A stretch of 64,000 bases of DNA. Source: a bacterium. Lineage in GTDB: Bacteria > Patescibacteriota > Minisyncoccia > Phycocordibacterales > Phycocordibacteraceae. Below, piece after piece: positions 38,559 through 59,094 of this stretch. Every line of letters begins with the position of its first letter. Within the stretch, counting starts at the first letter, position 1. The DNA is taken from NCBI GenBank assembly GCA_037200965.1, contig JBBCGK010000001.1:433992-497991 (forward strand), written 5' to 3'. Under the pieces are notes generated by a model. That model saw only the letters and a program-made list of their open reading frames with translations, had not been told where the DNA came from and made no database searches. The position numbers were made by a program, and so were the translations under genes.

Positions 38559-38594
38559 GTTGCACAACCTCCTTTTTACGAACGATCCTGCAGG
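38559..38594 (+). repeat. Array repeat R1
   Basis: Exact 36-mer, 16 bp from the annotated tatD start codon. Confidence 0.98.
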
Positions 38595-38603
38595 TTAAAA
38601 GCC

Positions 38604-38912
38604 GTGACTGATTTTCATCGAAAGCACGGCTACGACGTGGGGACCGGGAACATGGCGGTCATGTCGCTCAGAATTGGACTACTCATAGAAGAACTGGGTG
38701 AACTCCACGCCGTGGTTTCAAAGGGTGTTGGCGACATTTCAGAGGAACACGCAGACCTCTTGTATCTACTTCTTGGAAACTGCGTCACGCTTGGTATTGA
38801 TATAGAAACTGCTTTCTTTGCAAAACATGCCATTAACATGCGGAGGGAAGCCAAGGTAGTGAGGGGGAACCGCCGTGTATCGGATTGGTCCCATGAAAAA
38901 TCTCAGGAATGA
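38604..38912 (+). CDS. MazG-like all-alpha nucleoside triphosphate pyrophosphohydrolase (probably 5'-truncated at R1)
   Basis: LLIEELGELHAVV and EEHADLLYLLLGNCVTLGIDIE are the paired acidic helices of MazG/HisE-type NTP-PPases. The frame is open back through R1, and the only start available is a GTG 9 nt after the repeat. Confidence 0.7.
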   Translation: MTDFHRKHGYDVGTGNMAVMSLRIGLLIEELGELHAVVSKGVGDISEEHADLLYLLLGNCVTLGIDIETAFFAKHAINMRREAKVVRGNRRVSDWSHEKSQE

Positions 38913-39940
38913 AAGCTACAGTCATCATCGGTGCGCAGTATGGCAGCGAAGGAAAAGGTAAGATTGCAGCTTATCTTTCAGATGAGTTCGCTCGTGCAGT
39001 TCGAACTGGCGGGCCAAACTCGGGGCATACCGTCGAGCGCAATGGCACGTTCTATCAAGTTCGAGCGGTCCCTAGTGCCTTCGTGAACCAACAATGTCGC
39101 CTCGCGATTGGTGCCGGGGCCATAATAAACACTGCCGTACTATTAGGAGAATTAACGGCATGTGGTATTGTCGAGGGGCGTTTGATAGTTGACCCTCAGG
39201 CTGTCATAATTGATGAAGAATATCAAAATTCGGAACTAGATTTAATCAGTTCGATTTCGTCCACCGGACAAGGCGTTGGTGCAGCAATCGCAGCTAAGGT
39301 CTTACGTCGGAAAGTAACTCTCGCAAGAGACGTGCCCGAGTTGCGGCCACTGCTTGCCGATGTTGCTGGCACGATCAATTCCGAACTCCAACAAGGCCTA
39401 GCTGTAATGATTGAGGGGTCGCAAGGATTTTTCTTGAGTTTGCATCATGGTTACTATCCGTTTGTAACAGGCAGGGAAACGACCGCAAGTTCATTTTGCG
39501 CCGAAGTAGGAATCGGTCCCAAAGATGTGGGTCAAGTGATTGGAGTTCTCCGCACCCACCCGATTAGAGTTGGCGGCCCTTCGGGACCTCTTCAAGACGA
39601 AATCGATTGGCAGACCGTCACCGCCGAGTCGGGCTACCCAACACCGCTGTTAGAGATAACTACCGTTACCAAACGAATTCGACGCGTCGGGAGGTTCTCA
39701 ATGGCCGAAGCTAAACGATCTTTGATGATCAATTCGGCGACCCAAATTGCTTTAAACTTCGTCGACTACTTGGACCATGCAAACTTTGGACTTAGAAGCT
39801 ACACCGCACTGACTGCTTCAACAAAAAAATTCATCGACGCACTAGAGACACAAACGGGAGTTCCCGTTTCGCTGGTGGGCACGGGGCCCCGTAACAGCGA
39901 TATGATAGACTTACGACGCGAAAAGAACCTCCCCCATTAG
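38909..39940 (+). CDS. Short adenylosuccinate-synthetase-family enzyme (PurA/PurZ-like)
   Basis: P-loop GAQYGSEGKGKI (PurA has GDEGKGK), GPNSGHTV, STGQGVGAA, IEGSQGFFLSLHHGYYPFVT, TTVTKRIRRVG and GTGPRNSD all parallel PurA motifs. At 343 aa it is like the archaeal/phage short forms. Its start overlaps the MazG-like stop (ATGA). Confidence 0.8.
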   Translation: MKATVIIGAQYGSEGKGKIAAYLSDEFARAVRTGGPNSGHTVERNGTFYQVRAVPSAFVNQQCRLAIGAGAIINTAVLLGELTACGIVEGRLIVDPQAVIIDEEYQNSELDLISSISSTGQGVGAAIAAKVLRRKVTLARDVPELRPLLADVAGTINSELQQGLAVMIEGSQGFFLSLHHGYYPFVTGRETTASSFCAEVGIGPKDVGQVIGVLRTHPIRVGGPSGPLQDEIDWQTVTAESGYPTPLLEITTVTKRIRRVGRFSMAEAKRSLMINSATQIALNFVDYLDHANFGLRSYTALTASTKKFIDALETQTGVPVSLVGTGPRNSDMIDLRREKNLPH

Positions 39941-39948
39941 ATACCAGC

Positions 39949-40701
39949 ATGAAAAACCAATACTTTGGCGACTTGAGCGACTATAAGAAGTACGGTTTGC
40001 TGCGCACACTTTCGATTGAGGGTGAGTGCTCGCTCACTGTGTGTTGGATGCTGACGCGAGATGATCAAAGTACCGACGGGCGGCATACAACTTATTTGGC
40101 GGACGTAAGAGAATGGCGCAACCATGAGCCGTTGGTATTTGATCTACTCGCGGACGCAGTCTTCAAAAATTCCCGTAATCTCGAAATAGTTGAAAAGTCC
40201 GGACTAATACCGAACTCAAACTACTTTCGTGAGGAAATCGGCGATGCTCCCTCCCAACGGGAAGCTTTTTTTGCCCGATTGGCAGATGAAGCCCGCAATT
40301 CTGATATTGTGTTCTTGGACCCCGACAACGGCCTTGAAGTGAAGTCAGTCCCCTATGGCTCCAAGGGAGCACATAAGTACATTTATCGGTCTGAAATCGA
40401 AAAGTTATCTCGGAATGGACTTTCAATCTTGCTGTATCAACATTTTGGTCGGAAAGAACGGTCTGAGTTTATCCGAGCTATTGCATTGAAACTCATCGAT
40501 TGGCTGAATGTGGAGGAAGTATTTTCACTTCGGACGACGCATACCGTATTTTTTCTTGTGCCGAAAGCTGCCCACAGGTCGCGAATAGATCGATCCCTCC
40601 AGGCAGTAAATAGACAATGGGGAGATAAGATCTTTATCGAGATACACTCTAAGGAGTCTGTATCAACGGTTACAACGAAAAATCAGTTAGACCTACTCTA
40701 A
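39949..40701 (+). CDS. Hypothetical protein
   Basis: 250-aa ORF with N-terminal FGDLSDYKKYGLLR and central FLDPDNGLE. I do not recognise the family. Confidence 0.6.
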   Translation: MKNQYFGDLSDYKKYGLLRTLSIEGECSLTVCWMLTRDDQSTDGRHTTYLADVREWRNHEPLVFDLLADAVFKNSRNLEIVEKSGLIPNSNYFREEIGDAPSQREAFFARLADEARNSDIVFLDPDNGLEVKSVPYGSKGAHKYIYRSEIEKLSRNGLSILLYQHFGRKERSEFIRAIALKLIDWLNVEEVFSLRTTHTVFFLVPKAAHRSRIDRSLQAVNRQWGDKIFIEIHSKESVSTVTTKNQLDLL

Positions 40702-40714
40702 GTAAGTGAGCAAC

Positions 40715-40774
40715 ATGGATATTGGAAAGGAGCCTGACTTCGCCTCGGATGCCTACTTTGATAATCCGCAACAA
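40715..40774 (+). pseudogene. 5' fragment (20 codons) of an unknown gene, cut by R2
   Basis: ATG at 40715 opens MDIGKEPDFASDAYFDNPQQ, which runs straight into the repeat. Confidence 0.35.
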
Positions 40775-40810
40775 GTTGCACAACCTCCTTTTTACGAACG
40801 ATCCTGCAGG
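40775..40810 (+). repeat. Array repeat R2
   Basis: Exact 36-mer. Confidence 0.98.
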
Positions 40811-40812
40811 AC

Positions 40813-41427
40813 GATATCCACAAATCACTGCTGCGCAGCGCGGGCCTCGCGCATCTCTCGGCGGATGAGATTGGGGACTTGAGGGACTTGGCAGCGCATG
40901 AGCTACGGAATGAGACCGCGGACCGCGGTGGTCTCATGGCGGGATTGCGACTGCGCCTGCAACAATGCGACACACGGCTATCACGCCTTACAGACGCGCT
41001 CCTCGACCACCTCATCGAAAAGCAGGAATACGAAGCCAAGAAGGCCGCGCTCCTGGGCGAGCGGCGCGAACTGCTAGACAAACTGGAAAGCCCGGAGGCT
41101 TCGCGTCAACCCGCCGACGGCGTGCTGCAAGCATTGGAACTGCCAGATGTCGTGGAAACACGCTACGAAATGGCTTTGCCGGACCAACGGCGCCGCATTG
41201 CGTCTGCAATCGCTTGGAACCTAACTGGTAGCGGAAAAGAGGCCGTACCTGAGCTGAAATCTCCGTACCGGGAGATCGTACAGTGGCGTCTTTCCAATCC
41301 GGTGCGCCGTAACGGGGAGCGATCGGAACCTGACATAAAGCTGCTATACGAAGCGCTCAAAGAAGTCTGCCGGCGAGAAGACAAGCCGCCGCAACGTCCC
41401 CAACGTCCTGATGTCTCCGGCATATAA
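40813..41427 (+). pseudogene. Large serine recombinase, C-terminal fragment (5'-truncated at R2)
   Basis: The frame is open from the first base after R2. The coiled-coil segment LRLRLQQCDTRLSRLTDALLDHLIEKQEYEAKKAALLGERRELLDKLE is typical of the C-terminal domain of large serine recombinases. No catalytic N-terminal resolvase domain is present. Confidence 0.65.
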
Positions 41428-41494
41428 GGCGACATACTTTTTCGAGAATTGTCGCGCCTTATGCCGCGTGAATGTCAGGCAGATGCTGTTCTGC

Positions 41495-42724
41495 ATGGAT
41501 GCGAGCATCAGCTACTTCGCCCGCACCAACTTCCGCAACCGAAACCAGCTCTTCGGTGTGAGGCAAGCCGACCGTCTTTCGCACCTGTACGTCATCGGCA
41601 AGACTGGCACGGGCAAGTCCACCCTCCTTGAAACCCTCGCCCGGCAAGACCTTCGGGCCGGGCGCGGCTTCGCCCTCATAGACCCGCACGGCGATCTCGT
41701 GGAACGGATCGCGAGGGACGCGCCGGAAGCCGTCTATCTGAACGCCCCCGATCCCTCCCAGCCCTTCGGCTATAATCCGCTCCGGAGGGTCAGGGACGAC
41801 AAGATACCGCTTGCCGTCTCGGGCTTCCTCGAAACCCTCAAGAAGCTCTGGCCCGACGCGTGGGGCGTGCGCATGGAGCACGTCCTTAGGAATACGCTGT
41901 ATGCGCTATTCGAGCAGGAGGATGCGCGGCTTCCCGATATCCTCCGCCTCTATGCCGACGAGACATACCGGAAGGCGCTCGCCAAGGGGATTAGGAACGA
42001 TACCGTCCGCCGCTTCTGGCTCCATGAGTTCGAGCACTTCCACTTTCGCCAGAGGGCGGACGCCGTGGCTCCGATACAAAACAAGATCGGGGCGCTCCTT
42101 GCCGACCCCACGCTCTATCGCATCCTCGTCGAGCCAAAGGAGGATATCCGCTTCCGTGCCCTCATGGACGGCGGCGGGGTTCTTCTGGTCAATCTCTCGA
42201 AGGGCAAACTTGGCGAGGACAGCTCGCACATCCTCGGCGCGCTCATCGTCTCGACCCTGGGCCTTGCTGCCTTTAGTCGGGCCGACAGTCCCCCAACCTC
42301 CCGCCGCCCTTTCTTCGTCTATATCGACGAATTCCAGTCCTTCACGACCCTTATGCTCGCCGACATGATGTCGGAGCTGCGGAAGTACGGCGTGGGCCTT
42401 ACCTTGGCGCACCAATATATGCACCAGCTTGAACCCGAGATACGGCATGCGGTTCTGGGGAACGCTGGGACGCTCATATCATTCCGTGTTGGCCCCGAGG
42501 ATGCGTCAATCCTGGCGAAGGAGTTTCAGCCGACGTTTGACACACACGATCTCCTGAACCTGCCTAACCACCATATCTATCTGAAGCTGATGATTGATGG
42601 GGTGCCGGGCGGGGCGTTTAGTGCAAATACAGTCGATCATTCGACGCGGGGAGAGACAAAGCTCGCACCGCTACGAAGGACTTCAGACTTGAATGCGGGC
42701 GAAAGCGCGTCTGACTATGTGTGA
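41495..42724 (+). CDS. P-loop ATPase, type IV secretion coupling-protein-like (TraD/VirD4-type DNA-binding domain)
   Basis: Walker A VIGKTGTGKST, Walker B FFVYIDEFQSF and LAHQYMHQL. The start is taken at MDASISYF, because the track ORF start at 41411 overlaps the recombinase fragment. Confidence 0.7.
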   Translation: MDASISYFARTNFRNRNQLFGVRQADRLSHLYVIGKTGTGKSTLLETLARQDLRAGRGFALIDPHGDLVERIARDAPEAVYLNAPDPSQPFGYNPLRRVRDDKIPLAVSGFLETLKKLWPDAWGVRMEHVLRNTLYALFEQEDARLPDILRLYADETYRKALAKGIRNDTVRRFWLHEFEHFHFRQRADAVAPIQNKIGALLADPTLYRILVEPKEDIRFRALMDGGGVLLVNLSKGKLGEDSSHILGALIVSTLGLAAFSRADSPPTSRRPFFVYIDEFQSFTTLMLADMMSELRKYGVGLTLAHQYMHQLEPEIRHAVLGNAGTLISFRVGPEDASILAKEFQPTFDTHDLLNLPNHHIYLKLMIDGVPGGAFSANTVDHSTRGETKLAPLRRTSDLNAGESASDYV

Positions 42725-42859
42725 GCGGGATCACGTTTTTTTGCAGATGGCACGCCCGCGTGGGCTGTTTTGGTAATTGCCATAGCGTCTTGGCAACAAC
42801 TGGGCGTCAGTACCTGGCTTCCCTCACAGGTTGAATATATTACAGTATAGCTCAACCAT

Positions 42860-43864
42860 ATGTTGAGTCGCCGCATGCCCGGTATTACCGAATTACTTTT
42901 GAAAATCGCGCCCAAGATCGGCGCAAAAGTGCTGATCGAGCCTGAGTGGGGCTACGTCGGGCAAATCGCCTTCCGAAGCGGTCGCAAGCGGTACTTCCGG
43001 TTCTCCAGCGTTGACGTGAATACGCTGGGCGCATCGGAAGTCGCGAAGGACAAAGATTTTGCGAACTTCTTCATGAAGCACATGGGTTATCCCATCGTGA
43101 AAGGAAAAACGTTCTTCCGGGACGACTGGGCAGAGACAATCCGCTCCAAGCGAAAGATCACGGCCGCCTATCGATACGCGCGACGGCTGGGATTTCCGGT
43201 GATTGTGAAGCCTAACAGCGGCAGTCAGGGGAAAGCAGTATGCTTGGCTCGCACGAAGCGTCAATTCTATCGCGGAATGCGGGCGACCTTTGAGGTGGAC
43301 AAAGTCGCGCTTGTCCAAATACCTGTTTCAGGAAAAGACTACCGCATCGTGGTCTTGGACCGAGAAATCATTTCGGCGTACTACAGGGTTCCGCTAAGCG
43401 TCGTCGGCAATGGAAAAGCTTCCGTAGCGGCGTTGCTCAAGTCGAAGCAGAAAGAGTTTCGGCGCGCCGGGCGCGACACGGCGATCAGGGCCGACGATCC
43501 GCGCATAGCGGAAAAGCTCGAGCATCAGGGACTGAGCTTCGCTTCCGTTCTCCGAAAGGATCAAAAGGTTTTTCTTTTGGATAACGCCAACCTTTCGACG
43601 GGCGGCGAATCGGAAGACGTAACGGAAAGCGTGCACAAGGAGTTCAGGAAAATCGCGGTGTCGCTTACGAGGGATATGGGACTGCGCCTGTGCGGCGTCG
43701 ATCTCATGATAGACGGGGATATCTCGGAGCCGCCCAAAACGTATTGGGTGCTTGAAGTCAATTCGGCCCCGGGGCTCGATCATTATGCGAAAAGCGGCGC
43801 GGCACAAAACAAAATCGTCGAAAAGATGTATACGACGGTGCTTAAGAGCTTGGATCGTGACTAG
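42860..43864 (+). CDS. ATP-grasp enzyme (cyanophycin-synthetase / RimK-like ligase domain)
   Basis: FPVIVKPNSGSQGKAV, DYRIVVLD, ANLSTGGESEDVTESVH and VLEVNSAPGL match ATP-grasp ligase motifs. Confidence 0.7.
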   Translation: MLSRRMPGITELLLKIAPKIGAKVLIEPEWGYVGQIAFRSGRKRYFRFSSVDVNTLGASEVAKDKDFANFFMKHMGYPIVKGKTFFRDDWAETIRSKRKITAAYRYARRLGFPVIVKPNSGSQGKAVCLARTKRQFYRGMRATFEVDKVALVQIPVSGKDYRIVVLDREIISAYYRVPLSVVGNGKASVAALLKSKQKEFRRAGRDTAIRADDPRIAEKLEHQGLSFASVLRKDQKVFLLDNANLSTGGESEDVTESVHKEFRKIAVSLTRDMGLRLCGVDLMIDGDISEPPKTYWVLEVNSAPGLDHYAKSGAAQNKIVEKMYTTVLKSLDRD

Positions 43865-43956
43865 CTCGTGTATAGTCCATACGACCGATCTTCCTGACAC
43901 CAATAGGCATCGGCCAAATCGTGATTGCTGACCAACGTTTTGCGCCGAGCGACCGC

Positions 43957-44262
43957 CTAGTCGGGATCGTAGGGATTATTGGTATCCGTGCCATTGCGCG
44001 AGGAACCAGACGGCGAACTATACGGATCGACGCGCTTGTGACCTTGCTCGCCCGTATAGGGGTTCACGTTTGGATACGTCGAGTAATTGTTATAGGGATT
44101 GCTGTCAGGCGATGAGCGATGGTGTGGCGGAACATACGTGCCGTCCTTCCGCACATAGCCTCTGACACTGACGTCCTTCGCTGCCGCCTCAGCGCCAGTG
44201 GCCAGCAGGGTCGTGAAGACCAAAAGGGCGGCAAAAATCTTGCGCATATTAACTCCGATCAA
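43957..44262 (-). CDS. Small secreted Pro/Asn/Tyr-rich protein
   Basis: Signal peptide MRKIFAALLVFTTLLATGAEA followed by a low-complexity mature part. Confidence 0.5.
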   Translation of the reverse strand: MIGVNMRKIFAALLVFTTLLATGAEAAAKDVSVRGYVRKDGTYVPPHHRSSPDSNPYNNYSTYPNVNPYTGEQGHKRVDPYSSPSGSSRNGTDTNNPYDPD

Positions 44263-44357
44263 AAATGCGGCTCGATGCTAGTTTAGTGGCTGGCGCAGGG
44301 CCAGAGGAATAATCTTCGCAAGCGTGCGTCAGGCCACGCCCTACGGTAACGCGTCGA

Positions 44358-45341
44358 TCAGTTCGCCTCGTCGAAAATCCCATTCAGGATCGCCCCAAGC
44401 CGCACCCCTGCCGCCTGCAAGCGCTCTTCCACGATGGCGGCGCGGTCTTCCTTGTAGTTGCCGTCGGGCGCGAAGACGCGAACGGCGCCACCGGTATACG
44501 TCTCGCTGTCTTCGGAATAGCGGCAGGTGGTGCCGGAGAGCGTACAGTATCCGGTGTCGGGCGCGCGGGAGACGGTGAGCGATTCGTTGGCCCATACCAT
44601 CGGATCGAGCGACGCCTTCCACGTTGCCCGCTGCTCGTCCGTGATTTCCTTTTGAAGAACATTGCCAAACGCCTCGCGCCCAGGGCCTGCTGGCTTCGTC
44701 TGCGCGATGTGGAGATCACGCATGACTTGTTCGGGAATGCAGGTGTCCCACACGGTATGGAGCGCGGTTTTGCCGTCATAGGCGCAGCCCGAGACGCCCT
44801 TCACGCCGACGCTGTTGCCGCCGCGATCATCGGCATACGAAATGTGGAGCGGCTGGTGTATGTCGCCGAGCCAGTGCCCGAGGAATTTGAGGGCCGTGCG
44901 CTTCTTGTCGGTTGAGGCATTCGGGTCTTTGAGGATGGCGATATCGGCGGGGATGGCCGTGAAAAGGCACGTCGCCGCATTCACGCACTTGGCCTCGGGG
45001 AAGCTCGTCCAATCGCGCGGCATATTGATGAAGTGCTCCGCCCTCCGGCTGCTTTGCACATCGCCCTTCTCGTCCGGCCAGGTGCAGGCCCCGTGGAAGG
45101 TTCTCGGTATCTCCTTGCCGTCAGCGTCCTTAAGCGGGGTTTCTGAGCGGATAAGCTTGTTGACCGCCTTGCGGGCCGTCGGCGTGAGCTCCTTGTATGC
45201 GATCTCGCAGACCGCCTCGTGGCCGGTGCCGCCGAAGGCGAGGGCACCGCTCGTTGTGAGACAAAGACTGACGAAGCCACCAGCTCCAAACAGCGCAAGA
45301 AGAACCCGCCGACGTCCACCCATGTACCCGCTCCCCCTCAC
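44358..45341 (-). CDS. Secreted S1/P1-family zinc nuclease
   Basis: Signal-like N-terminus, FGGTGHEAVCEIA (WG..GH equivalent), HFINMP, and LKFLGHWLGDIHQPLH (the H..GD.HQPLH zinc motif). Confidence 0.8.
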   Translation of the reverse strand: MRGSGYMGGRRRVLLALFGAGGFVSLCLTTSGALAFGGTGHEAVCEIAYKELTPTARKAVNKLIRSETPLKDADGKEIPRTFHGACTWPDEKGDVQSSRRAEHFINMPRDWTSFPEAKCVNAATCLFTAIPADIAILKDPNASTDKKRTALKFLGHWLGDIHQPLHISYADDRGGNSVGVKGVSGCAYDGKTALHTVWDTCIPEQVMRDLHIAQTKPAGPGREAFGNVLQKEITDEQRATWKASLDPMVWANESLTVSRAPDTGYCTLSGTTCRYSEDSETYTGGAVRVFAPDGNYKEDRAAIVEERLQAAGVRLGAILNGIFDEAN

Positions 45342-45453
45342 TATTCGTGCCCAGGATGCGAGGACTCGCCCTAGCCGAAGAACGGATGATGCCCGGATGA
45401 TTTCACCCGTCCAAGAGGAATGTGCGCCTTAGACTTCGTATCGGGCCGGGCCT

Positions 45454-46359
45454 ATGCTGCTTCTATTGGTGGGGTGTTTCTCAGGGGGTATTGGCATGAC
45501 TAGCGGCACGCGAGTTTTTCCGACGCGTTCGTATCGGGCATCATTTCCCATTCATGCGCTTCTTGCCGTCTTCGCGCTTCTCGTCGCGGGTGCGTATGGC
45601 CCGGCCGGTTCGGCCTTGGCCGCGACCAGCGCGGCGTCCTTCTGCCTTGACGCATGCCCCGAGGGCGCGCCGGCAAAGAACAAGACGGTCGTGCACCATG
45701 TCTATGCGCTCAGCTCGAACCCCGACACGAAATTCGCCGATTGGGTCGCGTACAAGATCTCCAAAGCGACCATCGGGTCGAACTGTTCGCGCAAGTGGGC
45801 GAAGGACCCGGACCTAGCGGCCGGCACCACGCTCAAGCCCGCCGATTACAAGGACATCAGTGCGGCGCTCCAGTCCGACCGGGGCCATCAAGCGCCCTTG
45901 GCAAGCCTATGCGGCTCGAAGTTCAATGCCGAGGCGAACTATCTCTCGAACATCACCCCACAAAAGTCCGACCTCAATCAGGGCGCATGGGTGCGGCTCG
46001 AAACCGCCGAACGCAAGCTCATTACGGGCGGCACCGCGAAGACCGTGTATACCGTCACCGGGACGCTCTACGAAAAGAAGATGCCGCCGCTTCCCAAGGC
46101 GAGCGTCAAGCACAAAGTCCCTTCGGGCTATTGGAAGATCGTCGCCGTCGAGACGGACGACGGGATCGACGCCGTGGCGTTCGTCATGCCGCAGGATACA
46201 CCCAAAGCCGCCGATTATTGCGAAACGCGCACCACCATCGGCGACGTTGAGACGCGCTCGGGCCTCAAGTTCTTCCTCGATCTCAACGAGACCGACCGCA
46301 CGCAGCTTGAGGAGAGCGAGGCGAAGACCGGCCTCTATGAGGATTTGGGCTGCGAGTAG
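45454..46359 (+). CDS. Secreted DNA/RNA non-specific endonuclease (NucA/Serratia nuclease family)
   Basis: Signal/TM segment, the catalytic SDRGHQAPLASL (DRGH motif) and downstream NITPQKSDLNQGAW. Confidence 0.8.
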   Translation: MLLLLVGCFSGGIGMTSGTRVFPTRSYRASFPIHALLAVFALLVAGAYGPAGSALAATSAASFCLDACPEGAPAKNKTVVHHVYALSSNPDTKFADWVAYKISKATIGSNCSRKWAKDPDLAAGTTLKPADYKDISAALQSDRGHQAPLASLCGSKFNAEANYLSNITPQKSDLNQGAWVRLETAERKLITGGTAKTVYTVTGTLYEKKMPPLPKASVKHKVPSGYWKIVAVETDDGIDAVAFVMPQDTPKAADYCETRTTIGDVETRSGLKFFLDLNETDRTQLEESEAKTGLYEDLGCE

Positions 46360-46381
46360 CACGAGCGCGGGAAGATACGGC

Positions 46382-51779: not shown

Positions 51780-51793
51780 TTTCCGTTAATCTT

Positions 51794-53134: not shown

Positions 53135-53136
53135 AA

Positions 53137-53327
53137 TCAGGTACTTTGTACGAGTAATTCCCCGGCACTATTGGCGTAGAGCACCACAGGCGTCTTGCCG
53201 TCAGCGCTTGAGACAGCCATGAGTGCAGGAACAAAGTTTGCGTCCCGCAGATCGTCTACCGGCCCAAAGTCCGACCCGGTAGTGTCGTCGTCCGCCATAA
53301 GCGCATGTGTTGAAGGGTCAGCAACGA
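53137..53327 (-). pseudogene. 3' fragment of a second tail-fibre-related gene (5'-truncated at R4)
   Basis: ...ADPSTHALMADDD...LMAVSSADGKTPVVLYANSAGELLV parallels the N-terminus of the downstream fibre protein (LIAASSADGKTPVRLYADPTTHRLL). The frame is open into R4, and the apparent GTG start lies inside the repeat. Confidence 0.55.
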
Positions 53328-53363
53328 GTTGCACAACCTCCTTTTTACGAACGATCCTGCAGG
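53328..53363 (+). repeat. Array repeat R4
   Basis: Exact 36-mer. Confidence 0.98.
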
Positions 53364-53460
53364 AGTATGAGTACTGATACCGTCCAATCTGCCATTGAAT
53401 ATGCGCGACACTCGCCGTCGTGACGACGTTGAGTTAAGTCAATGGCGATTTATGTTACTG

Positions 53461-53982
53461 TCACCGGACCGGCACGAACCCTTCGGGAAGAAACTGCGTC
53501 GGGTCCTTCCACGGTTCAATAGCAACTGCTTTGGGGTATTTGCTTATCATGTAAGCATCGGTGCAATACACCAAACTTTCGGGATCATCGTCCGAAGGCT
53601 CAAGGCCTGAAAATTCAACCATCACAGATTTCTGGTTGGTAATTTTTCCAAAGGTGTCAATGAACCGCTTGATTTTGTCAAACTCACGCACAAAATCGTC
53701 GGGCTCAAATAGATAGGAATACACTACTACTGTATTCTCGCCGACGATCCGTTCGGAACCGTCCTCATTTTTCACGCGGAAACGCCCAGCGGCGAGCGGC
53801 AATTGGGTTACACCGCCATTGATCCGCACCATAATTTCCATGGCGCTATCGACCCATTTGTCAAAATTTTCAACAGGCTTCTGATCGCGATCTTGGTTAG
53901 GCAAATAAACTGCAAACCGTTGTACCGATTCAGATGTATCGGCACCTAGCGCGGTCTTGAGGTCAAAATCTACGAGCGCCAT
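53461..53982 (-). CDS. Hypothetical protein
   Basis: 173-aa ORF with normal composition. No motif recognised. Confidence 0.5.
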   Translation of the reverse strand: MALVDFDLKTALGADTSESVQRFAVYLPNQDRDQKPVENFDKWVDSAMEIMVRINGGVTQLPLAAGRFRVKNEDGSERIVGENTVVVYSYLFEPDDFVREFDKIKRFIDTFGKITNQKSVMVEFSGLEPSDDDPESLVYCTDAYMISKYPKAVAIEPWKDPTQFLPEGFVPVR

Positions 53983-54068
53983 GATCGCTTCCTATTAGCC
54001 ATCAATGAAAAGGCCCCATAGCCGGGGCCTTAAAGTAGGCAAAATGCCAAATTGCAACGCTGATGCCG

Positions 54069-54738
54069 CTACCGCGGTCTTGAAGGTCTCCGAATTCCGA
54101 GCACCGTTTTAGGGTCCCGCTTGATCTTTAGAAACCGTCCAAATCCCGAACGAGCGTCTTCAGGTTTCTCCGCTTGTTGGGAAGCTGAACGAATCGCTGT
54201 CACTATCTCGTTAGCAGCTTCTGATATGGGCGGCAAATTTTGCCGGTTATAGTCGCCTGGCGGGATTCCCGCGTGCTTCTTTTTCATATGATTTTCTCCT
54301 GTTTCTTCACAGGGTTGCGACCCATCGGTCTCAGCCCCGTGTTGATCGGGAGAAAGCCCTTCAAGAATCGGGCCGCGTACGTCGGTTTCCCAGGTTAAGG
54401 CTTCGACGCGAATATCCTGGCCACGGTCCGTCCTTATGCTTTCGCGATGGGGACCATACCCACATAGTACCACAGCGGCATGCGTAGTCGCGCCCGAAAT
54501 CTCGTGGACTATATCCGCAGCAGCGCCAATACCAGCGCCCGTTACTATCAAGTCATAGACCATCAAGATGCGATCACCGGAAAGCGGTTTGTCTGCCGTT
54601 ATTGCTACGCCCTTCGCCCAACGCGTCTCGCGATAGATGCAGGCGGGCAATCCGGTTTCGGCGACGAGGGACGAGAGCATCGAAATCGCGCCGACCGGCC
54701 CCATCTCTTTTTCGATAAAGCACAATCGCGTAATGCCG
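54069..54738 (-). pseudogene. Phosphoribosyltransferase-domain protein (probably 5'-truncated at R5)
   Basis: GDRILMVYDLIVTGAGIGAAA is the PRPP-binding loop of type I PRTases. The frame is open back into R5, with only a TTG start at 54725. The usual 40 or so N-terminal residues of the PRT fold appear to be missing. Confidence 0.55.
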
Positions 54739-54774: not shown

Positions 54775-55372
54775 AAACCATGAGAGAACCCGAGTTGATC
54801 TCGGTGGCCACGATCTTCAAAGGCGACAACTCGTTAAATTCCTCATAGTTCAGGTCAGCGAACCGAATTCGATCAGGCACTCCATCGTGATCACGACCAT
54901 TTGCGGCATATAATTCCCGCATACGTTCTCGAAGAACTGTGTTGATGAATTCACGAATGGGCGTTGTGGTGAAAAAGCCTAAGTGCCGCCATATGCGCAG
55001 CATTCCAAACGTAACTAGGGGAGCTGTTAAAAAAGACAATAATACACCCCCCAACGCCGTAGCGGACAATGCCCATCGAAGTCCCTGGCGGAGGCGAACA
55101 AATCTACGCCAATCATCAGCCCCCAATAACGTTACGGGGGTCAAGTTATGTAGGCTGAGAATATTTTGATCCCTAATGTCGGGATTCATCAAAGTCGAAG
55201 CACTGTATCCCGCCGCGACTAGCGTTGCCACGATCGCGCCAGCTGACGCCCCGGCTACACCTACGAAGGCGAGCCCATTCTTCGCGGCACCCTCCAAAGC
55301 ACCAATATGCGCTATGCCCTTAGCACCGCCACCTTCGAATATGCCAAAGGCTGGCCTCTTAGCGTCCATCAC
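54775..55372 (-). pseudogene. Patatin-like phospholipase, N-terminal part (3'-truncated at R5)
   Basis: FEGGGAKGIAHIGAL (oxyanion GGGxxG) and GASAGAIVA (GxSxG nucleophile). The catalytic Asp (DGG/DGA) region is absent because the sequence runs into R5. The track ORF 54605-55372 continues as unrelated read-through. Confidence 0.75.
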
Positions 55373-55505
55373 TGTATGTATCCTTTCGCAAATCAGGTCG
55401 GGGCCTGCACAAACGACAGAACATCGGACAGGCTGGTGAAATAATGAGATACCAGCCTTCGCACATTGCTGTTCCGCATACAGATACAGCAGTTGCTAGT
55501 TCAAA

Positions 55506-57077
55506 TCAGTTCAGTTGCTCCCGCACCAACGAAAGATCGTTGAACAACGTTCTCGTAAGATTCGGGATTTTTTCCAGTTTGTCTGCTTGTATTAACTTCG
55601 CCATAAAACGAATGCTTCCCTCCACTCGCTCGTCATAGAATATTTCGTGCAGAAACTTCCGCCCCTGCCGCAAATCCGTAGCATCAAACAGAAATTCCAG
55701 CTTGGCTTCGTTATCGACCATAGCAACTGCACGCCAAAAGAATCGAGGAAAATTCGCTGTCAGGAGGCTCTTGCGGACTATCTTGCTTAGGGAGGAGCGC
55801 GAAACAATCTCGCGTTTCAGATCGCTTGGGCCATTCAAAAATATGTCCCACTCGAAACGAGCCATATCACTATTGCTCGATAATTTTTTAAGCATCTCTA
55901 AAATATGATCAAATGCCAGGATAGCATCGTACACGTCGTCAAATCGGACGCGAATTTTGCTATAGAGCGGCACGAGACACAAATCCGCGCGAGCACGGGT
56001 TATCTTCGTCCCACGCTTTCGAGACCAAGTTGTCGTTATGATGTTAGATGGGCCGCTCAGCTTGATCTCAGAGTATGGGCCGATGCCGTCGTCATGCGCA
56101 TACAGTTTGGTTATGCGCGTCGCCCGTAGAAGAAAACCCGTGCGAGGTTCGGGTACTATGGGACCAGTTGTGGGCCCAAGGCCGCTGAGTGCGACCGCGT
56201 GAAATGCTCGTTTGCTTTTCTTGGAGCGTTCTAAGTTGAAGTCAAAACTCAGAATGATCGGAATATTGCCCCTCAAGAATGCATTTGCTGCGGCTTGGAT
56301 ATTGGCTCGCTCGGGCGTCATAAACAAATCCGCTTCGAGACCGACATTGCGCAAAACGCCAGCCATTTGATCGATATCCAAGCCGTCGTTCGGGAGAGCT
56401 AGGCCAGCTGTTGGCAGCGAAGCAAACGCTCGTTTGGTTATTTCAATAGGTGATAAGATTGGATTGTCATACAAATTCGCCGTGCCATGCAGTGTAGTCC
56501 ACAGAGCGCTGGTAGCGCATGCGCCAACCTCTCGGTCTTGTTCTTGAAAAGGCAGCGCACGTACAGGCAGATCTATGCCGAAAAGATTTGGTACATATCC
56601 GCGCTCAGTGAGGAAGCGACTCGATGGATTACTCCCAACCGGCGCCAAACACGTTCGCCCAATGATGGTTTCGGGAAGAGGTTTGACAACTACAAAGCCG
56701 TGATATCCCAAGACGTCGAACCTACACTCACCGCGGCCCGAAACGAAAAGCGCTTCGACCATATCTTTATCGAACGGTTGCCGAAAAAAGTGAATTCGTG
56801 AACATTCTTTCGGATAGTTCGCGTGGCATCTCGCGTAGTATCCTGTATGATCTTCGGCGAAATGCTTGTCGATGTAGTCGCGCTCAAATACAAGAGTTTC
56901 GATTTTCGCGGCTTCACAGTAACGAGCTAGAAAAATGACCTGGGGCTTTTGTGCAATTTGCTCCAGTCTAGGTTTAAATGCTCCGGCAACAAAAAGCGCT
57001 ACCAAGTTCTCTCGATTGTACTTGAGTACTTGGTAGCGCTCGCCCATGTGATCTAACTGAATATCCGCGTACGTCAC
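55506..57077 (-). CDS. Hypothetical protein with a putative papain-like cysteine peptidase core
   Basis: 523 aa. QEQDREVGACATSALWTTL (Gln...Cys), RAFHAVALSGL (His) and YAHDDGIG (Asp) occur in the order expected for a papain-fold / C39-like peptidase. The assignment is by motif pattern only. Confidence 0.5.
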   Translation of the reverse strand: MTYADIQLDHMGERYQVLKYNRENLVALFVAGAFKPRLEQIAQKPQVIFLARYCEAAKIETLVFERDYIDKHFAEDHTGYYARCHANYPKECSRIHFFRQPFDKDMVEALFVSGRGECRFDVLGYHGFVVVKPLPETIIGRTCLAPVGSNPSSRFLTERGYVPNLFGIDLPVRALPFQEQDREVGACATSALWTTLHGTANLYDNPILSPIEITKRAFASLPTAGLALPNDGLDIDQMAGVLRNVGLEADLFMTPERANIQAAANAFLRGNIPIILSFDFNLERSKKSKRAFHAVALSGLGPTTGPIVPEPRTGFLLRATRITKLYAHDDGIGPYSEIKLSGPSNIITTTWSRKRGTKITRARADLCLVPLYSKIRVRFDDVYDAILAFDHILEMLKKLSSNSDMARFEWDIFLNGPSDLKREIVSRSSLSKIVRKSLLTANFPRFFWRAVAMVDNEAKLEFLFDATDLRQGRKFLHEIFYDERVEGSIRFMAKLIQADKLEKIPNLTRTLFNDLSLVREQLN

Positions 57078-57538
57078 ACTGTGAACGGGATACGCCGACG
57101 GTCAGGAGAAATCTGGTTGGCTTGTTCTCGACTTTCAATTGCCTTGAGCATTGGCGAAAGACGCTTAGCGACTTGCGCAGTAAGATCAGTTCTGGAGGCC
57201 GTCGCCTTGGACTTGGGCCGTGCAGAACTCTTCGTCTTTTTGTGACGCATAGCGCAACCTCCAATTTCGGTGAGCAGGATGTTGCCCTCAGTTCCAGCCC
57301 GGCGGGTATAAACTCCAACACGGGGATCAAAATCAAGCTCATGGACTTGACTTCCTGGAACGGGGCCGCCTAGGGCTCCCCTGTAACGAATCAGCCCTGT
57401 TCTTAACGTACCACGAGCGCCTTCGTATCCCCAATATTTTGTATGTGGATAATCCACCAACACAAGTTCTTTGAATGGTGAGGCTGGCCGTTGCCTTTCC
57501 TCAGTGGCGTCGCCGTCCGTTGACCCAATCGCCTGCAT
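57074..57538 (-). CDS. Hypothetical protein (first gene of the S5 operon)
   Basis: 154-aa ORF overlapping the next gene's start by 4 nt. It has a basic C-terminal half and no recognised motif. Confidence 0.45.
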   Translation of the reverse strand: MQAIGSTDGDATEERQRPASPFKELVLVDYPHTKYWGYEGARGTLRTGLIRYRGALGGPVPGSQVHELDFDPRVGVYTRRAGTEGNILLTEIGGCAMRHKKTKSSARPKSKATASRTDLTAQVAKRLSPMLKAIESREQANQISPDRRRIPFTV

Positions 57539-57677
57539 AACAATTTAATGCCTTCCTTCTGGCAGCAGACCACTAGGAGCGGCAGACGGCCGTTCATTAT
57601 CAGCGTGGATCATTGGCTGGACCGAGCCCCAATCGGTGACTGATTCGTACGGCTAAAGACCGCTCGGGTCAACTAAG

Positions 57678-57713
57678 GTTGCACAACCTCCTTTTTACGA
57701 ACGATCCTGCAGG
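57678..57713 (+). repeat. Array repeat R6 (cas-proximal)
   Basis: Exact 36-mer, 32 bp from the cas2 stop codon (57746). Confidence 0.98.
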
Positions 57714-57745
57714 AGTCCGTGTATATTGAGCGGTAACGCGAATTA

Positions 57746-58042
57746 CTAGACAATCTCAAAGGACTTGATCTTATAATACTCCCCGATAACGGCATCGGCA
57801 GTTGAATTAAGTGCGCATGATTTGCAGGAAGAAAATAGATGCAGCCGATCCCGTTTTCCCGTGAATAGCGATCGCATCTTCATTTCAAATTCCCGGCGCT
57901 CCTTAAAGGAAAGGCGTCCGACGTAGAGAGTCTGTTGAAGTGCGGATAAACCATAGTCCTTTGATAACTTTTCCGCGCGGATCTGGCGCTGCCGATTGGC
58001 GGTTCTCCAGGCGACTATTGCAAGGAAGCATGGATCATTCAT
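57746..58042 (-). CDS. cas2: Cas2-like protein (atypical)
   Basis: 98 aa, overlapping the cas1 stop by 4 nt. The pattern FLAIVAW-R..RQRQIRAEKLSKDYGL-SALQQTLYVGRL-SFKERREFEMKM...DRLHLF follows the Cas2 ferredoxin fold (beta-alpha-beta-beta-alpha-beta). The usual Y-D at the end of strand 1 reads W-R here. Confidence 0.6.
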   Translation of the reverse strand: MNDPCFLAIVAWRTANRQRQIRAEKLSKDYGLSALQQTLYVGRLSFKERREFEMKMRSLFTGKRDRLHLFSSCKSCALNSTADAVIGEYYKIKSFEIV

Positions 58043-59094
58043 GGTGCCGCATATTCAAACGGCACATATAAGGGCGCTTTTTCAAGAAATACCCGGCTTA
58101 AGAGCTCGCTCTGTTCCGTAATGGTATTGCGGAGCGTACGGCGTTTCCCGTGATGGAGGACTTTCGACTCGAGGCGCTTAAGCACCGCCTCAACCACCTT
58201 GCTCTTTCCTTGCGCAGAAAGCCGATATTCGATCTTGCTTACCTGCTCGAAATCGCCGCGCTTGCCAAGTTCCTGAGAAATGAAGAGCGGCATGACTGCA
58301 GCGTCGACGACGGGGACCCGAAACTCTTCGACCAGATCGAGGACGAGCGCGGGCTTGCCGTAACGCTCGGAATGATAAAGTCCGAGATACGGGTCGAGAC
58401 CGATATAAAGGCACGCCCGCTCGACTTCGTTATAGAGGATGCCGTATCCGTAATTAAGAGCGCTGTTGAACTTGTCCCTGCCTTGCGGTATCCGGCCCGG
58501 GAACTTAAAAAGCGATTTCATGCCTTGCCAATAGCGCTCTGCAATGGATCCTTCAAGGCCAAGCAGTTCCTCGTTCACCCGGTTGCTCGGAAGCAGCTTC
58601 GCTATCGACTCAAAAACCGCCTCCGCCTGCATCCGCTCCTTCGCATTCTCCGCACCGTATCGGTCGGCAAGATGGCGCATAAAGCGGATTTGGTTGCGGC
58701 ACTTACCGACAACGAAGGTACGCGCAAGTTCGAAGGATTTAGCCGGATCGGAGGAAGTCGTAAGCTGTGCGCGGCGCAATGTCGCGAGCCCCTTCGGGTC
58801 GCTTGAGAAAATGCGCCCGACGGGTTTCCCAAATGCGCCGAGATAGACGATATCGACTTCGTGCTCGAGCGCGAGTTGCACCGCATGCATGGAAATGGAG
58901 GACGGACGGAGTATGACGATCTTAGCAAGCCGCCGGACCGGATACTCCTTCTTAACCCGGAGAAGCTTTACCGCAGTTCCCCGCTTGCGACGCCTGCCAC
59001 CCCCAAGCGGCTTTCGCGGAACCGGGAGACTGACCGTAATACGCTCGCCCGTCGCGCCGATGAAGCTGCCATAGGTATCTATCAGCAAATCCAT
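58039..59094 (-). CDS. cas1: CRISPR-associated integrase Cas1
   Basis: 351 aa. N-terminal beta domain (LLIDTYGSFIG...), LGLEGSIAERYW (catalytic Glu), NSALNYGYGILY, and GLYHSERYGKPALVLDLVEEFR (catalytic His and Asp/Glu) all match Cas1 motifs. Confidence 0.88.
   Translation of the reverse strand: MDLLIDTYGSFIGATGERITVSLPVPRKPLGGGRRRKRGTAVKLLRVKKEYPVRRLAKIVILRPSSISMHAVQLALEHEVDIVYLGAFGKPVGRIFSSDPKGLATLRRAQLTTSSDPAKSFELARTFVVGKCRNQIRFMRHLADRYGAENAKERMQAEAVFESIAKLLPSNRVNEELLGLEGSIAERYWQGMKSLFKFPGRIPQGRDKFNSALNYGYGILYNEVERACLYIGLDPYLGLYHSERYGKPALVLDLVEEFRVPVVDAAVMPLFISQELGKRGDFEQVSKIEYRLSAQGKSKVVEAVLKRLESKVLHHGKRRTLRNTITEQSELLSRVFLEKAPLYVPFEYAAP

What the first reader, a model, noticed from the sequence alone, without database searches (positions are those of the whole stretch)
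38559..59094. Cas1-Cas2 next to a CRISPR-like array whose 'spacers' are 1.4-10.9 kb gene-bearing DNA segments
Six copies of an identical 36-bp sequence lie in direct orientation immediately downstream of cas1-cas2, which is the layout of a CRISPR array. The inter-repeat segments are 2180, 10933, 1548, 1375 and 2903 bp. Canonical spacers are tens of bp, so these are 40 to 300 times longer. Repeats make up 216 bp of the 19155-bp locus. Duplication of the repeat on each side of an insert is what Cas1-Cas2 integration chemistry produces. The simplest reading is that this integrase has integrated kilobase-length DNA without the usual ruler-type length control. I know of no described CRISPR or casposon system with this architecture.
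Basis: partly seen in the sequence, partly recalled or inferred. Interest (0 to 1): 0.97.

Follow-up and report, generated by a model that had tools for sequence, protein, structure and literature searches.

The report
Cas1-Cas2 array with kilobase-long spacers
A tiny-genome (Patescibacteria) bacterium, like a whole clade of its relatives, carries a CRISPR-type Cas1-Cas2 integrase next to repeats separated by 0.14-12 kb pieces of foreign DNA rather than ~35-bp spacers, which suggests a natural Cas1-Cas2 that inserts DNA without measuring its length.

Summary
Six identical 36-bp direct repeats start 32 nt after cas2 and are separated by 2903, 1375, 1548, 10933 and 2180 bp.

It is not an assembly artefact:
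- An independent MAG contig with 7 SNPs has the same structure.
- k=31 Logan contigs from two read sets run from the segments into the repeat.
- A third assembly bridges the record origin, which lies inside the 10.9-kb segment.

Segment contents are foreign:
- One segment (2180 bp) is 100% identical to part of an ICE in a 4.0-Mb genome of the same sample. Identity stops exactly at the repeat borders, and the ICE has no repeat there.
- Another segment carries a phage tail-fibre-like gene.

The architecture is clade-wide. In about 25 loci holding two or more repeats, I measured 49 spacers of 140 to 10,933 bp (median about 1.5 kb). These came from Nanopore and Illumina MAGs, a closed 876-kb chromosome and JGI metagenomes. 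None has canonical length, and 81 metagenome contigs with this repeat family never show canonical spacing. Near-identical strains differ in what follows the first repeat.

Cas1 keeps its catalytic residues, and Cas2 has the Cas2 fold. No other cas gene lies within 10 kb in the loci checked.

Best explanation: a stand-alone Cas1-Cas2 integrates untrimmed DNA fragments without a ruler. This is inferred, not demonstrated, and its function is unknown. I found no published description.

The parts
58039..59094 (-). cas1 (351 aa)
   Evidence: The Pfam Cas_Cas1 hit is 1.1e-63. NCBIfam generic cas1 TIGR00287 scores 221 bits, and no subtype model passes its cutoff. E181, H241, D253 and E256 are invariant in 26 clade members. 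The best solved relatives are Cas1 proteins.
57746..58042 (-). divergent cas2 (98 aa)
   Evidence: The Pfam Cas2 hit is only 18 bits against a cutoff of 23.8. The AlphaFold2 model (pLDDT 75) has the b1-a1-b2-b3-a2-b4 fold, and the top 18 Foldseek PDB hits are all Cas2 (prob 1.00, TM 0.6-0.7). It always follows cas1 in the clade. A CxxC motif is invariant, and the usual Asp after b1 is absent.
57714..57745 (-). 32-nt leader-like stretch between the cas2 stop and the first repeat, ending in GGACT
   Evidence: A GGCT-type motif directly precedes the first repeat in nearly all clade loci but not interior repeats.
57678..57713 (-). repeat 1 (cas-proximal)
54775..57677 (.). spacer 1 (2903 bp): 154-aa and 523-aa unknowns plus a patatin gene cut by repeat 2
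   Evidence: The same spacer is present in the independent MAG contig L007.
54739..54774 (-). repeat 2
53364..54738 (.). spacer 2 (1375 bp): 173-aa unknown plus a PRTase-like ORF open at the border
   Evidence: Logan contig L013 is 1375 + 56 nt.
53328..53363 (-). repeat 3
51780..53327 (.). spacer 3 (1548 bp): phage tail-fibre-like gene 51794-53134(-)
   Evidence: The gene has 379 relatives in IMG/VR viral contigs and matches PHROG 3030 at 1e-22. Logan contig L002 spans repeat-spacer-repeat.
51744..51779 (-). repeat 4
40811..51743 (.). spacer 4 (10,933 bp): ICE/plasmid-like fragment
   Evidence: It carries a serine-recombinase 3' fragment, a T4CP/DUF87 ATPase, an ATP-grasp protein, an S1/P1 nuclease, an NS endonuclease, XRE, LysR, GNAT and an SpvB/FG-GAP gene cut by repeat 4. 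Its recombinase/T4CP end is 70% identical to the ICE that donated spacer 5. Continuity across the record origin 46708|46709 is shown.
40775..40810 (-). repeat 5
38595..40774 (.). spacer 5 (2180 bp): truncated MazG-like gene, short PurA-like gene and a 250-aa unknown
   Evidence: It is 2180/2180 identical to L003 9687-11866 (4.0-Mb contig JBBCBH010010880.1, same assembly), and identity stops exactly at both repeat borders. In the donor the MazG-like gene is 297 aa, against 102 aa here.
38559..38594 (-). repeat 6 (distal), 16 nt from the tatD start
37727..38542 (-). flanking housekeeping gene tatD (then S6, SSB, S18)
59150..60580 (-). flanking housekeeping gene metG (MetRS)

Best explanation
This is a stand-alone CRISPR adaptation module: cas1, a divergent cas2, a very short leader and 36-37-bp repeats. 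It belongs to a clade found mainly in Patescibacteria whose integrase inserts unprocessed DNA fragments of arbitrary length instead of ruler-measured ~35-bp prespacers.

**Proposed mechanism.**
- Each insertion follows ordinary Cas1 chemistry. The 3'-OH ends of a double-stranded fragment attack the two borders of a repeat on opposite strands, most likely the cas-proximal repeat.
- Gap repair then duplicates the repeat, so every insert ends up flanked by identical repeats.
- Because fragments are not trimmed and the two ends are not held at a fixed distance, inserts range from about 140 bp to about 12 kb. The lower limit may reflect the need to loop the DNA.
- Substrates are whatever linear DNA is in the cell: ICE and phage DNA, and occasionally the cas locus itself.
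- Arrays stay short (1-8 repeats), probably through recombination between repeats.

**Shown versus inferred.** Shown are the architecture, the foreign origin and exact borders of one insert, the clade-wide distribution, the strain polymorphism and the intact Cas1 active site. Inferred are catalysis by Cas1-Cas2, polarity, the looping limit and turnover.

**Function.** It is unresolved. No effector gene lies nearby. The candidates are a leftover integrase activity, a gene or DNA capture platform, and a memory read by a trans factor.
For: **1. Exact repeat duplication around unrelated inserts.** Six identical repeats are in direct orientation on the cas strand and start 32 nt after cas2.

**2. 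A known donor.** Spacer 5 is 100% identical over 2180 bp to an ICE region of a co-assembled 4.0-Mb genome. Identity ends at the exact repeat borders. The donor has no repeat there, and a donor gene is cut from 297 to 102 aa.

**3. Inserts look like arbitrary fragments of gene-dense DNA.**
- They are 87% coding, and 26 of 34 ORF-bearing spacers have an ORF running into a border.
- There is no orientation bias (16 plus, 11 minus, 7 mixed) and no end motif.
- No spacer is homologous to another across loci.

**4. The pattern is clade-wide.**
- All 16 analysed GTDB loci plus L066 and L072 have 37-nt repeats of one family right after cas2, with spacers of 140-10,933 bp.
- One interval is 12,050 bp.
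- The loci include the closed chromosome OY969557.1 and Nanopore MAGs.
- 81 JGI contigs with 47 repeat variants never show canonical spacing.

**5. Strain polymorphism.** Contigs carrying the identical Cas1 P0005 are 99.96-100% identical up to the last base of the first repeat and then diverge completely.

**6. A spacer from the cas locus itself.** Spacer L041_s1 is cas1(res 112-346)-cas2-leader and ends exactly at the leader|repeat junction of a paralogous locus. This is expected if Cas1 nicking there creates a DNA end.

**7. Proteins are intact.** Cas1 residues E181/H241/D253/E256 are invariant, the Cas2 fold is confirmed, and the conserved repeat ends form an inverted repeat TGCAC/GTGCA.

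**8. No competing machinery.** No other recombinase or cas gene is conserved next to the arrays. The repeat family is absent from 2.9 million viral contigs.
Against: - There is no biochemical or time-series evidence that Cas1-Cas2 makes these insertions.
- Known Cas1-Cas2 complexes are strict rulers, and no structural reason for losing the ruler was identified here.
- Donors are known for only two spacers, so neither PAM nor end processing could be assessed.
- The insert with the perfect donor match is the one farthest from cas2, which gives no support to cas-proximal polarity.
- Only 64 kb of the 960-kb genome was seen, so effectors, trimming nucleases or other recombinases elsewhere cannot be excluded.
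- Some loci have an orphan repeat without cas genes.
Confidence: 0.7

Rival explanations
1. Assembly artefact. A normal CRISPR array was collapsed, or chimeric walks through spacer/protospacer identity joined unrelated contigs at the repeat.
For: The repeat is short. The sample contains the donor of one segment. The record origin and two older contigs break inside or near the 10.9-kb segment.
Against: - k=31 contigs contain each tested segment plus 27-28 nt of repeat at the ends, with end positions predicted exactly by the window's junctions.
- An independent MAG with 7 SNPs has the same order.
- A third assembly bridges the origin.
- The same architecture occurs in Nanopore MAGs and a closed chromosome.
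- No locus of the clade has a normal array that could have been collapsed.
Confidence: 0.03
2. Another recombination system built the array. Candidates are integron-like or att-type site-specific recombination of repeat-bearing circular elements, or MGEs carrying a solitary repeat unit that recombine with the chromosomal repeat.
For: Identical direct repeats flanking gene-bearing cassettes resemble integron arrays. Spacer 4 starts with a serine-recombinase gene fragment.
Against: - The donor of spacer 5 has no repeat at either border.
- Inserts cut genes at their borders and are as short as 140 bp.
- The recombinase in spacer 4 is truncated.
- No recombinase is conserved beside the arrays.
- The repeat family is absent from 2.9 million viral contigs.
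Confidence: 0.07
3. Homologous recombination or end-joining rather than Cas1 transesterification. One route is a double crossover between former short spacers and matching protospacers on incoming DNA. Another is ligation of random DNA into breaks at the repeat.
For: Patescibacteria encode RecA (window 32362-33411) and are thought to take up DNA. The outcome would look the same for a single insert.
Against: - No short spacer exists in any locus of the clade to serve as homology.
- Thirty-odd bp of homology is a poor substrate, and this would have had to happen dozens of times.
- End-joining would not duplicate the 36-37-bp repeat perfectly each time.
Confidence: 0.08
4. The 36-mer is a generic dispersed repeat (REP/MITE-like or a regulatory element), and the segments are native genes.
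For: Many metagenome contigs hold a single repeat without cas genes.
Against: - There are no copies elsewhere in the 64-kb window or in the 10-kb upstream flanks.
- The repeat is always on the cas strand, starts right after cas2 and varies with the Cas1 lineage.
- Segments are demonstrably foreign.
- Single-repeat contigs are expected when spacers are about 1.5 kb and contigs are short.
Confidence: 0.02

Closest known systems
Canonical CRISPR adaptation (Cas1-Cas2 integrase plus leader and repeat-spacer array), especially stand-alone adaptation modules left after effector loss (Hudaiberdiev et al. 2017, PMC5704561)
   Same: - It has Cas1 with an intact active site and a Cas2-fold partner.
- The direct repeats are identical, 36-37 bp long, and have inverted-repeat ends.
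- The array lies immediately downstream of cas2.
- The inserts are unique and of foreign (ICE, phage) origin.
- The repeat is duplicated at each insertion.
- No effector genes lie nearby, as in known stand-alone modules.
   Different: - Spacers are 140 bp to about 12 kb (median about 1.5 kb) with no preferred length. Canonical spacers are about 25-70 bp and uniform within an array.
- Arrays hold only 1-8 repeats.
- The leader is only 2-38 nt, so the array is probably transcribed from the cas operon.
- Cas2 lacks the usual Asp and has an invariant CxxC.
- No cas4 or other trimming gene is adjacent.
Type III-A-associated Cas1-Cas2 of methanogens (for example Methanospirillum stamsii, locus L049)
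   Same: These are the nearest canonical Cas1 relatives recovered (about 30-35% identity). Their repeats have similar ends (C.TGCAG...ACAAGGATTGCAAC).
   Different: They have normal 72-77-bp repeat spacing, a canonical Cas2 (Pfam 4e-18) and a full Cas10/Csm effector module.
Casposons (Cas1-solo 'casposase' transposons)
   Same: A Cas1-family integrase inserts kilobase-long DNA and duplicates the target site. The Cas1 profile still hits the solved casposase 6opm at 7e-35.
   Different: - The inserted DNA here does not carry cas1, PolB or terminal inverted repeats.
- Inserts are unrelated to each other.
- The integrase stays fixed beside the target.
- Cas2 is present.
- The duplicated target is a 36-37-bp CRISPR-type repeat rather than a 14-15-bp site.
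Integrons
   Same: Both are ordered arrays of gene-bearing inserts next to an integrase gene and separated by a recurring site.
   Different: - There is no tyrosine recombinase.
- The sites are identical rather than degenerate attC hairpins.
- Inserts are arbitrary fragments with truncated genes.
- The donor lacks the site.

Membership tests
CRISPR array | Several near-identical direct repeats of about 23-55 bp | tested here: met
   Six identical 36-bp repeats are present. Repeats of 37 nt are identical within every related locus.
CRISPR array | Short spacers (about 20-70 bp) of nearly constant length | tested here: not met
   Spacers in the window are 1375-10,933 bp. Across 49 spacers of the clade the range is 140-10,933 bp, and none is of canonical length.
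CRISPR array | Spacers are unique and derive from foreign DNA | tested here: met
   Spacers share no homology with each other. Spacer 5 is identical to an ICE of another genome, and spacer 3 carries a phage-type gene.
CRISPR array | Adjacent cas genes and a leader | tested here: met
   cas1-cas2 lie directly upstream. A 2-38-nt leader-like stretch ends in a conserved GGCT motif. No separate promoter-like leader was found.
CRISPR-Cas immune system | Effector module and crRNA processing | not testable with these tools
   No other cas gene lies within 10 kb in the six annotated loci, and the window has no large cas-like ORF. The rest of the genome was not available. The repeat hairpin has no covariation support, and Rfam gave no CRISPR-DR hit.
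Cas1 integrase (PF01867 / TIGR00287) | Full-length domain match above the curated cutoff | tested here: met
   Pfam scores 215 bits against a cutoff of 22. TIGR00287 scores 221 bits against 72. No subtype-specific model passes its cutoff.
Cas1 integrase (PF01867 / TIGR00287) | Metal-binding catalytic residues (Glu, His, Asp/Glu) | tested here: met
   E181, H241, D253 and E256 are invariant in 26 sequences. Their assignment to the catalytic motif rests on the motif pattern GxEG...H...DxxEE known from solved Cas1 proteins, which is my own knowledge.
Cas2 | Sequence-family match | tested here: inconclusive
   The Pfam hit is 18 bits, below the 23.8 cutoff. In a clade profile search against PDB, six of the seven hits (E up to 10) are Cas2, with E only 0.02-1.4.
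Cas2 | Ferredoxin-like b1a1b2b3a2b4 fold | tested here: met
   The AlphaFold2 model (pLDDT 75) has this topology, and the top 18 Foldseek PDB hits are all Cas2.
Casposon | Mobile element carrying its own cas1 (with PolB), bounded by TIRs and a short TSD | tested here: not met
   Inserts carry no cas1 or PolB, apart from one cas1 fragment in L041, and no shared ends. cas1 is outside the inserts.
Integron | IntI tyrosine recombinase, attI, and attC-bounded cassettes with whole ORFs | tested here: not met
   There is no tyrosine recombinase beside the array. Genes are truncated at the borders, and the donor lacks the site.
Stand-alone adaptation module | cas1-cas2 (+/- cas4) with an array but no effector genes in the locus | tested here: met
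   See the neighbour tables. The concept is described in PMC5704561. Genome-wide absence of effectors was not tested.

The most novel reading that the evidence does not exclude
A widespread clade of Cas1-Cas2 has naturally lost length measurement. It works as a sequence-independent, site-specific integrase for kilobase DNA.

In episymbiotic, small-genome bacteria it would keep a turnover-prone archive of DNA taken from neighbouring cells' ICEs and phages. That archive could serve as a gene-capture platform or as a long-form memory of invaders used without a classical effector.

It would be either a living analogue of the hypothesised casposon-to-CRISPR intermediate or a reversion to it.
Probability: 0.45. 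Interest if true: 0.95.

Novelty: new variant of a known kind. Interest (0 to 1): 0.9.

Why it matters
**Mechanism.** All studied Cas1-Cas2 integrases act as molecular rulers that accept only short prespacers. A natural clade that writes 0.14-12 kb of arbitrary DNA into a defined 37-bp site would change that picture.

**Evolution.** It would give a concrete system for testing how CRISPR adaptation evolved from casposon-like integration.

**Technology.** It could provide a template for large-cargo DNA writing or recording tools.

**Biology of Patescibacteria.**
- These organisms are usually described as nearly devoid of CRISPR-Cas, so this reveals a route for foreign DNA to enter their genomes.
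- Perfect matches between inserts and co-resident genomes can link uncultured episymbionts to the organisms whose DNA they encounter. Here the match is to an ICE of a 4.0-Mb bacterium.

**Detection.** CRISPR finders cap spacer length, so they would miss these arrays by design.

Tried and rejected
- **Assembly chimera.** Rejected on the evidence given under rival explanations.
- **Artificial join at the record origin (46708|46709).** Rejected after GCA_015689235.1 showed the same gene spacing and NCBI protein numbering ran continuously through the locus.
- **Recurrent mobile element or conserved cassette.** Rejected because blastn and tblastx found no homology between spacers.
- **Repeat-bearing MGEs.** The repeat pattern has 0 hits in viral contigs, and the donor lacks the repeat.
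- **Repeat RNA hairpin with covariation.** The hairpin is foldable, but RNAalifold gave no consensus and pair counts equal the shuffles.
- **Rfam.** No CRISPR-DR family hit.
- **Promoter/terminator scan of the array.** Fewer sites than in shuffles.
- **Donors of spacers 1-4.**
  - There was no match in the plasmid or phage collections.
  - The 523-aa protein has no viral relatives.
  - Exact-protein look-ups found only the array copies.
- **Donor taxonomy from LysR homologues.** Uninformative.
- **PAM.** Only two donors are known and they share no motif.
- **Spacer-end composition.** No clear motif.
- **Conserved synteny around cas1-cas2.** None found; the module sits in different housekeeping contexts.
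- **Literature.** Seven searches found no description of kilobase spacers. Subscription-only papers are not covered.

Full report
**1. The observation**

The 36-mer GTTGCACAACCTCCTTTTTACGAACGATCCTGCAGG occurs six times, all exact and all on the + strand. The copies are at 38559, 40775, 51744, 53328, 54739 and 57678. There is no other copy in the 64-kb window even with three mismatches, and none is expected by chance.

The intervals are 2180, 10933, 1548, 1375 and 2903 bp. On the minus strand lie cas1 (58039-59094, Pfam 1e-63) and a 98-aa ORF (57746-58042) with a weak Cas2 match. The cas2 stop is 32 nt from the nearest repeat.

The outer flanks are housekeeping genes:
- On one side: tatD, rpsF, ssb and rpsR.
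- On the other side: metG, a permease and glyS.

The window also holds rRNA genes with insertions typical of Patescibacteria.

**2. It is not an artefact**

The window comes from the 960,259-bp record JBBCBH010010897.1 of GCA_037975565.1.

Independent k=31 Logan contigs carry the junctions. These can only be built from k-mers present in the reads:
- L002 is 28 nt of repeat + the 1548-bp segment + 28 nt of repeat.
- L013 is the 1375-bp segment + 56 nt.
- L001 is cas1-cas2 + 27 nt of repeat.
- L005 comes from a second read set (SRR10968228) and is 28 nt of repeat + the 2180-bp segment.

The number of repeat bases at each contig end (27 or 28) is what the window's own set of junctions predicts for a k=31 graph.

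A separately deposited MAG contig (JAATEX010000139.1, GCA_015655515.1) matches window 64000->47300 with 7 mismatches and no gap. It therefore has the same cas genes, repeats and first three and a half segments.

The window wraps the record's origin at 46708|46709, inside the 10.9-kb segment. That join is real:
- A 6.6-kb contig of a third assembly (GCA_015689235.1) has the endonuclease and XRE genes at the same 507-nt distance across it.
- NCBI protein accessions run continuously through the locus.

**3. What the segments are**

They are dense in genes, and genes are cut at the borders:
- The SpvB/FG-GAP ORF is cut by the repeat at 51744.
- The patatin ORF is cut by the repeat at 54739.
- A serine-recombinase ORF and a MazG-like ORF are open at their segment borders.

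The 2180-bp segment is 2180/2180 identical to positions 9687-11866 of L003. L003 is part of a 4.0-Mb contig of the same assembly, in a region with an integrase, a relaxase, TrwB-like ATPases and AlpA, so it is an ICE.

Identity stops exactly at the two repeat borders. The ICE has unrelated sequence there and no repeat. The MazG-like gene is 297 aa in the ICE but 102 aa in the window.

For the other segments:
- The end of the 10.9-kb segment (recombinase/T4CP) is 70% identical to the same ICE, so it comes from a related element.
- The 1548-bp segment encodes a 446-aa protein with 379 relatives in IMG/VR viral contigs and a PHROG match, so it is a phage tail-fibre-type gene.
- The remaining two segments have no identifiable source.

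**4. The same thing happens throughout the Cas1 clade**

Cas1 has hundreds of relatives, and most of those that carry a source name are labelled Paceibacterota, Parcubacteria, Kaiserbacteria, Adlerbacteria or Nomurabacteria. A scan of one genome per species returned 43 loci.

In the loci with Cas1 at least ~54% identical, a 37-nt repeat of one family starts 2-38 nt after cas2, on the cas strand. The L042 locus, with Cas1 only 40% identical, also has it. The consensus is CCTGCACAnnnnnGTCGCAAAAAGGATATTGTGCAAC.

Copies within a locus are identical and are hundreds to thousands of bp apart. Examples:
- L015: 1332, 1379, 1340 and 2377 bp.
- L027, on the closed 876-kb chromosome OY969557.1: 213, 2526, 144, 579, 4007, 386 and 140 bp.
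- L041: 1081, 2460, 2518, 2223 and 1798 bp.
- L072: 8016 and 1086 bp.
- One contig has 12,050 bp between two copies.

Many loci have only the first repeat.

A degenerate repeat pattern found 81 JGI metagenome contigs with 47 repeat variants. Where several copies occur, they are 220-2715 bp apart start to start (spacers of 183-2678 bp). None shows 60-80-bp periodicity.

In total I counted 49 spacers of 140-10,933 bp. The median of the first 38 is about 1.48 kb.

Spacers share no homology across loci. They are 87% coding, mostly have an ORF open at a border, and show no strand bias. Their contents are varied:
- a DnaX fragment
- glycosyltransferases
- a kinase
- an RHS toxin tail
- a dCTP deaminase
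- a methyltransferase

By contrast, the distant Cas1 relatives (30-35% identity) in methanogens and a Bacteroidales MAG have ordinary arrays with 72-77-bp periodicity. The Methanospirillum stamsii locus (L049) also has a canonical Cas2 and a type III-A effector module.

**5. Signs of activity**

Six ENA contigs encode the identical Cas1 protein P0005. Three of them are 99.96-100% identical to L058 up to the last base of the first repeat and then diverge completely. In L058, L059 and L063 the repeat is followed directly by housekeeping genes. That is a gain or loss precisely at the first repeat between near-identical strains.

One spacer (L041_s1, 1081 bp) is 100% identical to cas1(res 112-346)-cas2-leader of a paralogous locus in the same MAG. 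It ends exactly at the leader|repeat junction. This is what one expects if Cas1 nicking at that junction generates a DNA end that is then captured. Acquisition hotspots at the array are known for E. coli, which is my own knowledge. Two JGI contigs also have a spacer ending in a cas1 fragment.

The first repeat, but not interior repeats, is preceded by a conserved GGCT.

**6. The proteins**

Cas1 passes only the generic model. The I-D, I-G and I-C subtype models score below their cutoffs. Residues E181, H241, D253 and E256 are invariant. The best solved relatives are archaeal and I-D-type Cas1, and a casposase ranks third.

The second gene is a divergent Cas2:
- Its profile finds only Cas2 structures, but weakly.
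- The AF2 model (pLDDT 75) has the Cas2 topology, and the top 18 Foldseek hits are Cas2.
- The clade's Cas2 lacks the usual Asp after strand 1 and has an invariant CxxC.
- The family comprises about 68 clusters at 50% identity.

No other cas gene is within 10 kb in the annotated loci. The module sits in different housekeeping contexts in different genomes.

**7. Interpretation**

The simplest account is that this Cas1-Cas2 performs ordinary staggered integration at a repeat, duplicating it, but on untrimmed DNA of any length.

Each rival fails on at least one tested point:
- Assembly chimera: excluded by the read-level junctions and the long-read genomes.
- Site-specific recombination of repeat-bearing elements: the donor lacks the repeat, inserts are truncated fragments, and the repeat is absent from viral contigs.
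- Recombination through former short spacers: none exist anywhere in the clade.
- Generic dispersed repeat: position, strand and co-variation with Cas1 argue against it.

Several things remain inferred:
- catalysis by Cas1-Cas2
- insertion polarity
- the cause of the about 140-bp lower limit, which I suggest is DNA looping between the two repeat borders
- array turnover by repeat-repeat deletion

Function is open. There are three possibilities:
- It is a residual integrase activity after effector loss.
- It is a DNA or gene capture platform.
- It is a memory used by a trans-acting system. Type III-like processing would need only the first about 35 nt of each insert, and the nearest canonical relatives are type III-A-linked.

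The repeat can fold into a hairpin, but there is no covariation support for an RNA role.

**8. Novelty**

Stand-alone adaptation modules are known (PMC5704561). Seven full-text searches found nothing on kilobase spacers or Cas1-linked arrays of gene-bearing inserts.

I classify it as a new variant of a known kind: a CRISPR adaptation module with a qualitatively different, ruler-less output. Interest is high.

Noticed in passing
window 1-2093 and 14762-20235: The rRNA genes carry insertions. The 16S gene is split by an insertion of about 730 nt (Rfam hits 1-837 and 1571-2093), overlapped by ORF 740-1483(-). The 23S gene spans 4345 nt and contains a group I intron at 16313-16529. This is typical of Patescibacteria.
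   Followed up: no
window 38604-40701; L003 9111-13015: The captured ICE fragment carries a MazG/PRA-PH-like gene, a short archaeal-type PurA-like gene and an unknown 250-aa gene. The PurA-like gene scores 361.8 bits against a 368 cutoff for PRK04293, and 219 against 300 for the PurZ model. In the donor these genes sit next to a P450. They may form a nucleotide-modification module, but the function is unknown.
   Followed up: partly
window 46708|46709 and about 47262-47300: The origin of the record lies inside the 10.9-kb spacer. Two older short-read contigs (GCA_015689235.1 and GCA_015655515.1) both end within about 40 nt of each other in the XRE gene. This suggests local strain heterogeneity or a sequence shared with another genome.
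   Followed up: partly
L041 10003-11083; L174 about 956-1127; L189 about 1481-1652: Some spacers are made of cas1-cas2 DNA itself. One ends exactly at the leader|repeat junction of a paralogous locus (100% identical to L030 10285-11365).
   Followed up: partly
L163, L209 (repeat with GGCT but no cas genes); L162, L191, L197, L224: Degenerate loci exist. Some are orphan leader-like GGCT+repeat units without cas1-cas2. Others keep only the last about 28 codons of cas2 before the repeat.
   Followed up: no
L030, L033, L039, L041 (MAG MFD05512.bin.1.167); L029, L031, L032, L047: The module is not confined to Patescibacteria-labelled MAGs. MAGs labelled FCPU426 or 'uncultured proteobacterium' carry it. 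One MAG has at least four cas1-cas2-repeat loci with the same repeat.
   Followed up: no
window 54775-57677: Spacer 1 holds a truncated patatin-like phospholipase gene plus 523-aa and 154-aa proteins with no family match. It may be a fragment of a defence island.
   Followed up: no
L043 11016-11125: A 34-nt direct repeat (CTGAGGCGGGAGTCCGATTCTCCCCGGGTCCACA) occurs twice, 76 nt apart, at the very start of that locus's first spacer. It is unexplained.
   Followed up: no
L064 8021-8293, L065 748-1020: An HU-family DNA-bending protein gene lies directly upstream of cas1 in one lineage. This may be a coincidence, or it may be relevant to looping long substrates.
   Followed up: no
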